This document shows positions 1 to 35,201 of a DNA stretch of 35,201 bases, one piece after another. Source of the stretch: a virus. Taxonomy: Duplodnaviria > Caudoviricetes. How positions within the stretch are numbered: the stretch's first letter is position 1; each line of letters opens with the position of its first letter. The position numbers and the translations under genes are program-made. The stretch spans positions 1 to 35,201 of IMG/VR virus record IMGVR_UViG_3300044657_000112. One strand, 5' to 3'. The notes beneath the pieces are model-generated. The model did no database searches. It was not told the DNA's origin and worked only from the letters and a program-made list of their open reading frames with translations.

Positions 1-141
1 CGTTCTCTCCTCACTTTCCCCACCACTGTCAGGAGGTAGTGATGACAATCACGCTTAAAATTGATGACGAAGTAATGCGCCTCATAGACCTTATGAGCGC
101 ACAAGAAGCCAATGCCTTTGATGGCGACCCCAATGACACCT
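1..141. repeat. Terminal direct repeat, left copy (circular-assembly overlap)
   Basis: 1-141 matches 35061-35201 except for one T/C difference (15 vs 35075). Confidence 0.95.
18..28 (+). repeat. Dispersed 11-mer CCCCACCACTG, copy 1 (same site as 35078-35088)
   Basis: Exact copies also at 6538 (rc), 6982, 16429, 17284 (rc) and 29733 (rc). Confidence 0.9.
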
Positions 142-233
142 ATGACAAGATACTCAAAGCTTGCAATTACAACATGGATGTAGTTGCCGAGCATTTTGAA
201 CTCGCCTCAAATAATGACGAACCAAGGTTTTAG
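42..233 (+). CDS. Small acidic hypothetical protein
   Basis: Strong RBS AGGAGG at 31-36; start GTG 39 or ATG 42; follows ssb across the circular join. Confidence 0.8.
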   Translation: MTITLKIDDEVMRLIDLMSAQEANAFDGDPNDTYDKILKACNYNMDVVAEHFELASNNDEPRF

Positions 234-3336: not shown

Positions 3337-3791
3337 TTCATACCCCAATATGCAATCAGGGCTGACTCAGCTATTCCGTCCTGATTACGTTTCTCCCAGC
3401 AGACAGAGGCGTCTGGCATTAGTTCAGTTGCTCTCTGTCTTGCTTGGTCTTTGTCAGACGTAACACCAAGATCCTTCTTCCAGACTTGCGGCCTTACCTC
3501 TACAAACTTGTAGCCCAACGCCACAATTAAACCAAGATATATTCCATAACCAAAGCCAGTACGAAACGTGCTGACAACGCCTTGTTTTGGCATTGCTTGC
3601 TGCTTTTCAATAAACACTATCTTGGGAGAATAATCATCGAGTAATTCACATATAGATGCGACAGCCAAGAACTTCTTTGTCTTGCCAGCTACTCTGTATG
3701 TTTCTATAGGCACTGGCTTACAAACCAAATGCCTGTCATTCATAAAGGTAATTCCACCAGTAACGCCTGGGTCAATTCCGCAAATCATCAT
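3321..3791 (-). CDS. RuvC-like Holliday junction resolvase
   Basis: GIDPG, VFIE, FxxGxGYG, PQVWKK and DGIAES RNase H-fold motifs. Confidence 0.85.
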   Translation of the reverse strand: MMICGIDPGVTGGITFMNDRHLVCKPVPIETYRVAGKTKKFLAVASICELLDDYSPKIVFIEKQQAMPKQGVVSTFRTGFGYGIYLGLIVALGYKFVEVRPQVWKKDLGVTSDKDQARQRATELMPDASVCWEKRNQDGIAESALIAYWGMNYSLG

Positions 3792-4005
3792 TGTAAGCCT
3801 CTAATTTAATGTGACATCCAAGGGCTTCAGCCCAGCAATGTGCATTAAACAATGTTGGCTTCCTATTCCCACTTTCCCACTTAGCAACAAGTCCTGACGC
3901 ACAGCCAATGCGATCATCAAGCCGCTGCTGTGTCAGTCCTAGCTCATTACGCCTATTGCTAAACTGTTTAATGAGATAATCAGGGAATGTATCTGCATGA
4001 TTCAT
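3772..4005 (-). CDS. XRE-family HTH transcriptional regulator
   Basis: RRNELGLTQQRLDDRIGCASGLVAKWESGNRKP. Confidence 0.9.
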   Translation of the reverse strand: MNHADTFPDYLIKQFSNRRNELGLTQQRLDDRIGCASGLVAKWESGNRKPTLFNAHCWAEALGCHIKLEAYNDDLRN

Positions 4006-7023: not shown

Positions 7024-7055
7024 AAAAAAGAGACCCCCCAGTCAAGGGGAGTCTC
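7024..7055 (-). terminator. Rho-independent terminator
   Basis: Minus strand GAGACTCCCC-TTGACT-GGGGGGTCTC-TTTTTT: 10-bp stem with one G-U, then U6. Confidence 0.85.
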
Positions 7056-7092
7056 AGGTTCTAGGGAGAACAACATGCCTAATGTTGTCCGT
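7024..7092 (-). ncRNA. Candidate small RNA with anti-SD segment
   Basis: Upstream TG-a-TAACAT -10 element, 5' hairpin ACAACAT/ATGTTGT, UUCUCCCU, then the terminator. Confidence 0.45.
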
Positions 7093-32572: not shown

Positions 32573-32603
32573 ATTATACACACATGCGTTCAAACCCTGT
32601 CAA
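32573..32603 (-). promoter_or_regulatory. Late-operon promoter TTGACA-N19-TATAAT
   Basis: Perfect sigma70 hexamers with a 19-bp spacer, 29 nt upstream of terS. Confidence 0.7.
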
Positions 32604-32807
32604 TACACTATTTGTATGTCATTGATATCATTGCTTATGCTACGCCAAACTCTCAGGCTAACGTCAAACCGGATGGGGTTCGGCTTCGCGGCAAACCCCA
32701 CGTCCAGCATGACCGGAGTTTTAACTTATTGCATCTCATTCTAACGACGAACCGCCTTGGTCGGCGGTCGCCAGACAAGCTGGCAAGTCATCACGCCGTG
32801 GGTTGAG

Positions 32808-33059
32808 AACACACACACACGAGTTTGTACCGTATCACAATGTAAAATTGTGGCATTTAGTCTCGATTCGTAAAGCCCTCAATATTCTTTGGCTCTTTCA
32901 TTTCTATACATATGGTGTCGCCGTACAGTGGTGCGGCTCGTTGTTCTTTATCATCGAGTTCTATATCGGCCAAAGAATATTGACCTTCGGCAAGGGGCTT
33001 GACGAACTGCGAGCCATAAAATGCGGAGCCATTGTTGCGTACAATCTCGTATGCGTGTT
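32808..33059. other. Long imperfect inverted repeat (fold-back element)
   Basis: Perfect 15-bp core 32879-32893/32969-32983 plus a nested series of outer helices. Confidence 0.85.
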
Positions 33060-33085
33060 TGCATAACTTTCAACAGGAGAACATC

Positions 33086-33259
33086 ATGCAACAGTTAGAC
33101 CTATTCACTACAGTAACCGCCAAGTCAGTAGATGATGTCAACATCACCATCTCGCCAGCACAGTATGAGATCATGCAGTGCATCGCATCCGGCGACTTGA
33201 TACGAGCTACTGAGCTTATCGAGTTACAGAACGATACTGATGACGACATTTGGTTTTAA
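33086..33259 (+). CDS. 57-aa protein with QLDLF clamp-binding motif and DDDIWF SSB-like tail
   Basis: AGGAG RBS at 33075-33079; MQQLDLF...NDTDDDIWF. Confidence 0.8.
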   Translation: MQQLDLFTTVTAKSVDDVNITISPAQYEIMQCIASGDLIRATELIELQNDTDDDIWF

Positions 33260-33270
33260 GCCAAATATGA

Positions 33271-33297
33271 GTGGGGTAGGCATAGGGTCTACCCCAT
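33271..33297 (+). other. Intergenic RNA hairpin without U-tract
   Basis: GTGGGGTAGGC-ATAGG-GTCTACCCCAT. Confidence 0.6.
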
Positions 33298-33320
33298 AAC
33301 CTAGACGTGAGGAGAATCAC

Positions 33321-33917
33321 ATGACTAATACAGAACTTACCACAGAGAATCTTGACCGCGTAGCTCGTGCATTACAGGCAGACGCTAAACCATCACCTGA
33401 CAAGCAAGCACTCTGGGATGCAGAGTTCAAGCGTAGGATGCACGCTCTGATCGACATGTTTGAGGATGGCCCCGAGGTTATCCTACAGTGCAAGTTGGCA
33501 GACCAGTTCACTCGCACCTTCGAGAAGATCACACACAATGTCACAGCTGCTGGCACACAGGCCAGACGTGAGCTTCGGGACATGAAGCGTGACGATGTTG
33601 GTATCGAGATCACTGGTAACAAGGTCGAGGATATGGAGAACAAGATCGAGCTGCTTCGTCAGCAATGGTGGATTGCCAACCATGCCTACAAGATCATGCG
33701 GCATCAGGTACGCACAGAGGTCATCGGCAAGACCGGTATGAACTGGGGACAGTACATACCCGCTGATGAGATGTCTCGTGTCAAGCGTGTCAACTTCCGC
33801 AAGGGTCAACTCACTATGGAGCAGTATCAAGCCAACAAGCAGGACTTCTGGTCATACGCCAGAGATGCTGGGCTGGTAGAGATGCCCAGAGATGACAGCT
33901 TTGCTTCCAATATCTAA
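33321..33917 (+). CDS. Helical/coiled-coil early hypothetical protein
   Basis: 198 aa, GAGGAG RBS, followed by a terminator. Confidence 0.85.
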   Translation: MTNTELTTENLDRVARALQADAKPSPDKQALWDAEFKRRMHALIDMFEDGPEVILQCKLADQFTRTFEKITHNVTAAGTQARRELRDMKRDDVGIEITGNKVEDMENKIELLRQQWWIANHAYKIMRHQVRTEVIGKTGMNWGQYIPADEMSRVKRVNFRKGQLTMEQYQANKQDFWSYARDAGLVEMPRDDSFASNI

Positions 33918-34612: not shown

Positions 34613-35023
34613 ATGAACTTCGCACAAATCACAGTTTCCGGTAATGTAGGTTCAGCCCCAGAGATTCGGGATGTTAACGGCACCAAAGTCGCTAACTTCT
34701 CAGTCGCTGTCAACGAGTCCTACACCAACAAGTCAGGCGAGAAAGTGGAGACTACCCACTGGTATCGTGTCGAGGCTTGGGACGGCAGCAATGGCAAGGG
34801 TCTTGTATCCAACGTCATTGAGAAATATGTCGGCCAGGGTACAACTGTATTCGTACAAGGTATGCCTCTGATTGAGGAGTACGAAAAGGATGGGCAGAAG
34901 CAACGCTCATTCAAAATCAAGCTAGCTGGTGCGGGATCAACATTCCGCATGGGCGGCAAGTCAGGTGGTGACGCTGCGCCTCAGGCACAAGCTCAAGCAC
35001 CTGATGAAGACATTCCGTTCTAA
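34613..35023 (+). CDS. ssb: Single-stranded DNA-binding protein
   Basis: GNVGSAPEIR, VANFSVAVNE, TTHWYRVEAW, C-terminal DEDIPF; AAGGAG RBS. Confidence 0.95.
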   Translation: MNFAQITVSGNVGSAPEIRDVNGTKVANFSVAVNESYTNKSGEKVETTHWYRVEAWDGSNGKGLVSNVIEKYVGQGTTVFVQGMPLIEEYEKDGQKQRSFKIKLAGAGSTFRMGGKSGGDAAPQAQAQAPDEDIPF

Positions 35024-35035
35024 TCTGCCTTAGAC

Positions 35036-35079
35036 GGAAGAGGAGAGAGCGTGTTACCTCCGTTCTCTCCTCACCTTCC
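35036..35079 (+). other. Hairpin downstream of ssb
   Basis: GAGGAGAGAGCG/CGTTCTCTCCTC stem extended by GGAAG/CTTCC. Confidence 0.6.
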
Positions 35080-35201
35080 CCACCACTGTCAGGAGGTAGT
35101 GATGACAATCACGCTTAAAATTGATGACGAAGTAATGCGCCTCATAGACCTTATGAGCGCACAAGAAGCCAATGCCTTTGATGGCGACCCCAATGACACC
35201 T
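35061..35201. repeat. Terminal direct repeat, right copy
   Basis: Matches 1-141 at 140 of 141 positions. Confidence 0.95.

What the first reader, a model, noticed from the sequence alone, without database searches (positions are those of the whole stretch)
33086..33259. 57-aa double-mimic protein: beta-clamp motif at one end, SSB tail at the other
Seen: the first early gene encodes MQQLDLF...NDTDDDIWF. Established: QL[S/D]LF is the consensus DnaN sliding-clamp binding motif, and DDDIPF-COOH is the SSB tail that recruits PriA, DnaG, Pol III chi, RecQ and ExoI. Both motifs are at exposed termini joined by a short, probably helical core. Inference: an adaptor that links the clamp to SSB-interacting proteins to build a host replisome on phage DNA, or a two-site inhibitor of host replication and repair. 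It sits directly behind the fold-back element in a genome with no replication enzymes, so the two may form an undescribed minimal replication-hijack system, possibly switched off by the candidate sRNA at 7024-7092.
Basis: partly seen in the sequence, partly recalled or inferred. Interest (0 to 1): 0.88.

Follow-up and report, generated by a model that had tools for sequence, protein, structure and literature searches.

The report
Phage first-gene protein with clamp tag
The first early gene of this marine phage encodes a tiny acidic protein found across its whole phage group; in this lineage it carries a conserved peptide that likely docks it on the host's DNA sliding clamp, while the claimed second mimic at the other end is absent from most relatives and likely has another role.

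Summary
The ORF is real (57 aa, good ribosome-binding site) and has QLDLF at residues 3-7 and DDDIWF at the end. It belongs to an unannotated family of strongly acidic 54-92 aa proteins found at the start of the early operon in 65 of 65 usable loci of this ~35-kb polymerase-less marine podovirus clade. What defines the family is a helical hairpin (E-x7-GD-x2-R) and a hydrophobic second-last residue, not the two motifs. QL[DE][LF]F is under strong purifying selection where present (pN/pS 0.03) but occurs in only 15 of 65 loci. An SSB-like tail occurs in 5 of 65, never has the SSB proline, and is swapped for DLQ in close relatives. The genome also encodes a true SSB with a canonical tail 1.4 kb downstream. 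Best reading: a host-takeover hairpin with a lineage-specific clamp tether (binding untested). The double-mimic replisome adaptor is not supported at family level. The upstream fold-back is real, covaries and is clade-wide, but does not track the motifs. The proposed antisense RNA does not covary with its target.

The parts
33086..33259 (+). 57-aa acidic protein, first gene of the early operon; member of an unannotated clade-wide family
   Evidence: net charge -15.8 per 100 aa
33075..33079 (+). Shine-Dalgarno AGGAG, 6 nt before the ATG
   Evidence: GGAG/GAGG precedes the same Met in homologues
33092..33106 (+). QLDLF, predicted beta-clamp-binding motif (lineage-specific)
   Evidence: pN/pS 0.03; 15 of 65 loci; literature consensus
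33107..33154 (+). variable linker (residues 8-23); relatives carry an insertion of about 36 aa here
   Evidence: pN/pS 0.66 for residues 8-22
33155..33229 (+). conserved helical hairpin core (residues 24-48); E28, G36, D37 and R40 invariant in 35 of 35 aligned diverse members
33239..33256 (+). DDDIWF tail; one of many family tail variants that share a hydrophobic second-last residue; resembles the SSB tail but lacks its proline
32804..33065 (.). clade-wide closed fold-back leader: an (AC)n block (32809-32820) pairs with a GT-rich block 27-36 nt before the ATG; RNA versus ssDNA not resolved
   Evidence: no Rfam match
32573..32603 (-). divergent promoter-like site TTGACA-N19-TATAAT upstream of the small terminase (late operon)
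   Evidence: 19-nt spacer in 33 of 45 loci, no match in 12
34613..35023 (+). phage's own SSB with a canonical tail (DEDIPF), in the same early region

Best explanation
This is the first early gene of a polymerase-less marine podovirus and encodes a small acidic helical-hairpin protein of a clade-wide family, which likely acts as a host-takeover factor and, in this lineage, is likely tethered to the host beta sliding clamp by its N-terminal QLDLF, while its DDDIWF end is likely a variant of the family's own tail rather than an SSB mimic. Shown: the gene, its position, the family, selection on QLDLF, and the patchy distribution of both motifs. Predicted: the hairpin fold with flexible ends. Inferred mechanism: (1) the protein is made early from the host-polymerase early operon; (2) the acidic hairpin and its hydrophobic tail bind a basic, DNA-handling surface of a host protein, probably as a dimer (target unidentified); (3) QLDLF occupies the clamp's peptide pocket, concentrating the hairpin at forks and competing with host clamp clients such as Hda or repair and translesion enzymes, without disabling the Pol III machinery that the phage itself needs. 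My odds for single steps: QLDLF binds the clamp about 0.7; DDDIWF binds SSB-partner pockets in vivo about 0.15-0.2.
For: A family member lies at the head of the early operon in 65 of 65 usable TerS-anchored loci (80 fetched of 124 found; 14 too short, 1 without a called ORF). It is the first SD-led ORF in 57 of 65. All 44 unique locus proteins are acidic, -12 to -20 per 100 aa. E-x7-GD-x2-R is in 119 of 123 unique sequences and a hydrophobic second-last residue in 121 of 123. In QLDLF all five codons vary synonymously while residue 2 varies freely; pN/pS is 0.03 against 0.66 for the linker (18 coding sequences, not independent). The variants QLELF, QLDFF, QPDLF and QLPLF keep the Q-x-x-hydrophobic-F pattern. 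QPDLF is a validated clamp motif in phage Mu MuC, which also has an N-terminal one, and MuC overexpression titrates the clamp away from Hda (PMC12867686 passages). QLDLF is the strongest pentamer, and acidic flanks are proposed to help binding (PMC11139829 passages). The motif sits in two separate groups on the TerS tree. In three related genomes it is the only such motif among the called ORFs.
Against: No binding was measured, and the host and its clamp are unknown. The motif is missing from 50 of 65 loci, and four related genome records have none in any called ORF, so its benefit is conditional. Some close homologues degrade it (QKLPLF, QLPSLDF, QPVPSIDF). The core's target is unidentified: no significant PDB, Pfam, PHROG or Atlas match. 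The host-takeover role rests on position, size and charge only.
Confidence: 0.45

Rival explanations
1. One reading: a true double mimic in which QLDLF binds the clamp and DDDIWF binds SSB-tail pockets (PriA, DnaG, chi, ExoI), bridging or blocking them, at least in this sublineage.
For: The tail has an acidic run, Ile and a terminal Phe, whose carboxylate is the key SSB-tail contact (PMC5872125 passages). 15 of 17 sequences with a terminal Phe also carry the clamp motif. IWF is kept with synonymous changes in two subgroups with DNA and in two more known only as proteins.
Against: Both motifs co-occur in only 5 of 65 loci. 20 of 35 motif-bearing sequences lack a terminal Phe. Tails are exchanged freely. 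0 of 123 end in PF, while the clade's real SSBs end in [IV]PF in 33 of 35 and IPI in 2. The family conserves the second-last residue, not the last. The phage already has an SSB with a canonical tail. The co-occurrence is confounded by shared ancestry.
Confidence: 0.12
2. The clamp is the target of the whole family: the acidic hairpin dimer plugs the clamp's DNA channel like Twort Gp168, and QLDLF only adds avidity in some lineages.
For: Gp168 is a small homodimer (modelled residues 12-54) with negatively charged surfaces that fills the clamp channel (PMC8565349 passages). This family is also small, helical and acidic. Gain of a clamp motif in two groups would be natural if the clamp were already the target.
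Against: This phage has no recognisable polymerase and likely needs the host clamp, so blocking clamp loading would hurt it. Gp168 was not among the sequence or fold hits (inconclusive for a 57-aa model).
Confidence: 0.12
3. A clamp-coupled transcription co-activator (MuC-like or T4 gp33-like): the hairpin binds host RNA polymerase and QLDLF links late transcription to replication, for example at the TTGACA-N19-TATAAT late promoter.
For: Mu and T4 both use the clamp for late transcription (PMC12867686 passages). The late promoter-like site has an over-long 19-nt spacer in 33 of 45 loci, which suggests a need for an activator (inference; MerR-type precedent recalled).
Against: The 19-nt promoter is present in members that lack the motif. 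The protein has no DNA-binding domain. An HTH protein (3772-4005) is a more obvious regulator.
Confidence: 0.12
4. QLDLF does not bind the clamp in vivo. It is one of many interchangeable N-terminal arms that packs on the core or binds another partner, and the protein is a generic acidic anti-defence or DNA-mimic factor.
For: N-terminal arms differ completely between subgroups. One model placed strands in the N-terminal half. Every member is acidic whether or not it has the motif.
Against: The conserved positions and tolerated substitutions match the clamp-motif rules. The motif stays at the terminus despite a ~36-aa linker insertion and is unstructured in both models.
Confidence: 0.15

Closest known systems
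Phage Mu MuC/Mor (PMC12867686)
   Same: Phage proteins with an N-terminal clamp motif (QHDLF; also QPDLF, a variant seen here) that engage the host clamp.
   Different: MuC is a 16.5-kDa DNA-binding activator and its family carries the motif throughout; this 57-aa protein has no DNA-binding domain and most of its family lacks the motif.
Twort Gp168 / G1 Gp240 clamp inhibitors (PMC8565349)
   Same: Small, helical phage proteins with negatively charged surfaces, aimed at the clamp.
   Different: Gp168 fills the DNA channel and avoids the peptide pocket; no sequence or fold match was found here; this phage likely depends on the host clamp.
Bacterial beta-clamp clients with QL[S/D]LF, e.g. Hda with a disordered N-terminal motif (PMC11139829)
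   Same: Exact QLDLF pentamer at a disordered N-terminus, followed by acidic sequence.
   Different: No enzyme domain is attached; binding is unmeasured.
SSB C-terminal tail DDDIPF (PMC5872125)
   Same: Acidic run, Ile and a free terminal Phe.
   Different: Trp replaces Pro; the terminal Phe is not conserved in the family (17 of 123); the phage has a separate true SSB.
HTVC010P-type pelagiphages (PMC8477408) and Pelagibacter phage EXVC031P Hodr (OQ414635)
   Same: ~35-kb podovirus layout with early and late regions on opposite strands and no DNA or RNA polymerase; TerL is 59% identical to Hodr.
   Different: 43% GC against the 29-36% used to define that group; no DnaA-domain gene detected; no significant match to the 57-aa or the 198-aa protein in the isolate collection.

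Membership tests
Beta-clamp clients (clamp-binding motif) | Pentamer Q-aliphatic-x-[L/M]-[F/L] | tested here: met
   QLDLF at residues 3-7; definition from PMC11139829 passages
Beta-clamp clients (clamp-binding motif) | Motif in a disordered, accessible segment | tested here: met
   pLDDT 51-57 and no secondary structure for residues 1-9; prediction only
Beta-clamp clients (clamp-binding motif) | Motif conserved in homologues | tested here: inconclusive
   Strongly conserved in the sublineage (pN/pS 0.03) but present in only 15 of 65 clade loci
Beta-clamp clients (clamp-binding motif) | Measured binding in the clamp's peptide pocket | not testable with these tools
   Needs experiment
SSB C-terminal tail (DDDIPF) mimic | Acidic run plus free terminal Phe | tested here: met
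   DDDIWF followed by stop
SSB C-terminal tail (DDDIPF) mimic | Proline before the terminal Phe | tested here: not met
   W56; 0 of 123 family sequences end in PF; the clade's SSBs end in [IV]PF in 33 of 35
SSB C-terminal tail (DDDIPF) mimic | Terminal Phe conserved across homologues | tested here: not met
   17 of 123 sequences; 8 of 65 loci
SSB C-terminal tail (DDDIPF) mimic | Binding to PriA, DnaG, chi, ExoI or RecQ pockets | not testable with these tools
   Needs experiment
Gp168/Gp240 clamp-channel inhibitors | Sequence or fold similarity | tested here: inconclusive
   Best Z 3.4 with no Z>=5; a 57-aa hairpin carries little signal
Mor/MuC activators | Mor domain with DNA-binding HTH | tested here: inconclusive
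   No Pfam family significant for the protein or its relatives; at 57 aa it is far shorter than the 16.5-kDa MuC
HTVC010P-type pelagiphages (genome level) | G+C 29-36% as used in PMC8477408 | tested here: not met
   43.0% GC
HTVC010P-type pelagiphages (genome level) | At least 40% shared genes | not tested
   Only TerL, SSB, ParB-like, 198-aa and 57-aa proteins were compared with isolates

The most novel reading that the evidence does not exclude
An abundant clade of polymerase-less marine podoviruses opens infection with a minimal hairpin scaffold that carries swappable host-binding arms. In this lineage both arms hit the replisome (QLDLF the clamp pocket, DDDIWF the SSB-partner pockets), making it a two-headed mimic, expressed from behind a clade-wide 260-490-nt closed fold-back of a new kind.
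Probability: 0.12. Interest if true: 0.75.

Novelty: new variant of a known kind. Interest (0 to 1): 0.4.

Why it matters
Polymerase-less marine podoviruses depend on host replication machinery (PMC8477408 passages), and how they take it over is unclear. A universal first-gene family with a selected clamp motif in some lineages gives a small, testable candidate. It also offers a natural comparison between members with and without the tether. Phage proteins with clamp motifs are already known (MuC), so the motif itself is not new; the family, its invariant core and the clade-wide leader fold appear unannotated in the libraries searched.

Tried and rejected
Complex prediction with a Caulobacter clamp never ran because the queue was full, so there is no verdict on binding; dimer formation was also not modelled. 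Fold searches gave nothing meaningful: Foldseek PDB best E 4.5, viral best E 1.0, VIA best Z 3.4. Sequence searches gave no annotation. The Pfam LTM hit (10 of 35 members at E<=0.1, best 0.003) is only a lead for a dimerising hairpin. A recalled resemblance to clamp-loader collar helices or UVR domains found no support in these searches. Host: two scans of prokaryote genomes found nothing; isolate hits for SSB and ParB were uninformative. RNA runs: short contigs from RNA libraries cover 33086-33187 and 33191-33390 at depth 2-3; DNA carry-over is not excluded, so this is not counted as evidence of expression. Antisense RNA at 7024-7092: the match to the gene's ribosome site is 13 of 14 nt, E 3.5; the segment is itself an SD plus ATG next to a minus-strand terminator-like hairpin; it is kept in G001 and largely in G002, whose gene-1 site differs; rejected. 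Hits L057-L061 to a homologue's N-terminus are methylase ends, not family members. Long repeat-like hits P0029, P0030 and P0033 were treated as spurious without further checks. No clamp motif was found in 286 other early ORFs. A family-wide viral scan was not possible because the alignment was too diverse. Literature searches listed no description of this family; most subscription papers and all supplements were not seen.

Full report
Observation. The ORF at 33086-33259(+) reads MQQLDLF...NDTDDDIWF with AGGAG 6 nt upstream. QLDLF is the only strict clamp motif in 50 window proteins, where composition predicts 0.013; an SSB-like end is expected 0.004 times (both post hoc). Two AlphaFold2 runs give a helical hairpin at residues 24-48/52 with low-confidence ends.

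Context. The window is a complete circular genome of 35,060 bp plus a 141-nt terminal overlap, 43% GC. It has podovirus structural genes, and its TerL is closest among isolates to Pelagibacter phage EXVC031P Hodr (59%). No polymerase, primase or helicase was detected. It does encode SSB with a canonical DEDIPF tail, Sak, RecE/YqaJ, a resolvase and a ParB-like protein. HTVC010P-type phages likewise lack polymerases (PMC8477408, passages). The host was not found; a marine alphaproteobacterium is my inference.

Close homologues. Searches seeded on the protein gave a tight group. QL[DE][LF]F is kept with synonymous changes at all five codons while residue 2 varies. pN/pS is 0.03 for the motif, 0.66 for the linker, 0.29 for the core and 0.26 for the tail (18 of 21 coding sequences, three left out as truncated or with a long insertion; pairs are not independent). 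The tail comes in two alleles, IWF and DLQ, with mosaics in both directions. A few homologues degrade the motif.

The wider family. Anchoring on the neighbouring small terminase avoided selecting for the motifs. Of 124 relatives the best 80 were fetched; 14 had under 700 nt upstream and one had no called ORF. All 65 others carry a homologue at the head of the early operon, as first SD-led ORF in 57. Some of these loci are near-identical. The clamp motif is in 15 of 65 loci (12 of 44 unique proteins), a terminal Phe in 8, an SSB-like end in 5 and both motifs in 5; all 44 are strongly acidic. Pooling with database hits gave 125 unique sequences; two read-through fusions were dropped, some entries differ only in start call, and the pool is enriched for the query's sublineage. 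Of the 123 kept, 119 have E-x7-GD-x2-R, 121 a hydrophobic second-last residue, 35 the clamp motif, 17 a terminal Phe, 15 both, and none ends in PF. The clade's true SSBs end in [IV]PF in 33 of 35. The family therefore conserves W56, the position where this protein differs from the SSB tail, and not F57. On a TerS tree the motif falls in at least two groups; recombination or independent gain cannot be told apart, since core identities do not decide it. In seven related genome records (85-100% complete), three have the motif only on this gene and four have none in any called ORF. Against my reading: 15 of 17 terminal-Phe sequences also have the clamp motif, which leaves room for a sublineage double mimic, though shared ancestry explains it equally well.

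Literature. QLDLF is the strongest natural-type pentamer, and Hda carries its motif on a disordered N-terminus (PMC11139829, passages). MuC has validated QHDLF and QPDLF motifs and titrates the clamp from Hda when overexpressed (PMC12867686, passages; supplement not seen). The SSB tail binds through its terminal Phe carboxylate and acidic residues (PMC5872125, passages). Gp168 is a small dimer that plugs the clamp channel (PMC8565349, passages). The T4 gp33, MerR-spacer, single-strand-promoter and LTM comparisons are recalled. No family annotation or fold match was found.

The fold-back. It is real: z -4.9, 12 of 51 pairs compensatory in 10 related loci, against at most 3 in slid controls (structure derived from these sequences, two main alleles), and no Rfam match. 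An (AC)n block pairs 18-43 nt before the start codon in 40 of 43 loci that have the block, closing a 260-490-nt domain. Stability is the same with and without the clamp motif (median z -2.3, n=13; -2.5, n=32), and neither strand is favoured (24 of 45). It is a clade feature and not a partner of the motifs. The proposed antisense RNA matches at chance level and does not covary.

Verdict. The gene, family and selected clamp-type motif are real. The most likely reading is an acidic host-takeover hairpin with a lineage-specific clamp tether (0.45 for the whole mechanism, about 0.7 for clamp binding alone). The double mimic gets 0.12. Binding is untested and the core's target is unknown. Novelty: new variant of a known kind; interest 0.4.

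Noticed in passing
window 32804-33065 and loci L063-L142: Clade-wide closed fold-back of 260-490 nt ahead of the first early gene, closed by (AC)n pairing with a GT-rich block (40 of 43 loci), with covariation and a recurrent TTGAC about 76-98 nt before the ATG; no Rfam match; RNA or ssDNA unresolved. Deserves its own study.
   Followed up: partly
window 32573-32603 (-): Perfect TTGACA and TATAAT hexamers with a 19-nt spacer before the small terminase; the spacer is 19 nt in all 33 of 45 loci that match, which suggests an activator-dependent late promoter.
   Followed up: partly
window 19, 6538, 6983, 16430, 17284, 29733, 33927: AGTGGTGGGG occurs 7 times on both strands (about 0.07 expected for the 9-mer); 7 and 5 times in G001 and G002, 0-1 times in five more distant relatives. 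Possible operator or host-specific motif.
   Followed up: partly
window 1-141 and 35061-35201: 141-nt terminal overlap with one mismatch: the window is a complete 35,060-bp circular assembly.
   Followed up: yes
window 33321-33917 (+): 198-aa protein conserved near the start of the early operon across the clade, with no Pfam, PHROG or significant PDB match; a candidate initiator or regulator.
   Followed up: partly
window 39-233 (+): Acidic 64-aa protein right after SSB ends in DEPRF (DEPPF in relatives L077 and L083), another acidic tail with a terminal Phe.
   Followed up: no
P0017, P0027, L098, L101, L109 and L057-L061: The segment F[DE]HDWND occurs in N-terminal arms of several family members and near the C-terminal end of DNA-methylase-like proteins in another phage group; shared short motif or exchanged DNA.
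   Followed up: no
window 7024-7060 (-): Hairpin followed by a T run on the minus strand, likely the terminator of the late transcript where it meets the early operon.
   Followed up: partly
L005, L007, L013, L035 downstream of the gene: One or two further small helical ORFs (47-73 aa) are inserted between this gene and the 198-aa gene in some relatives but not in the window.
   Followed up: no
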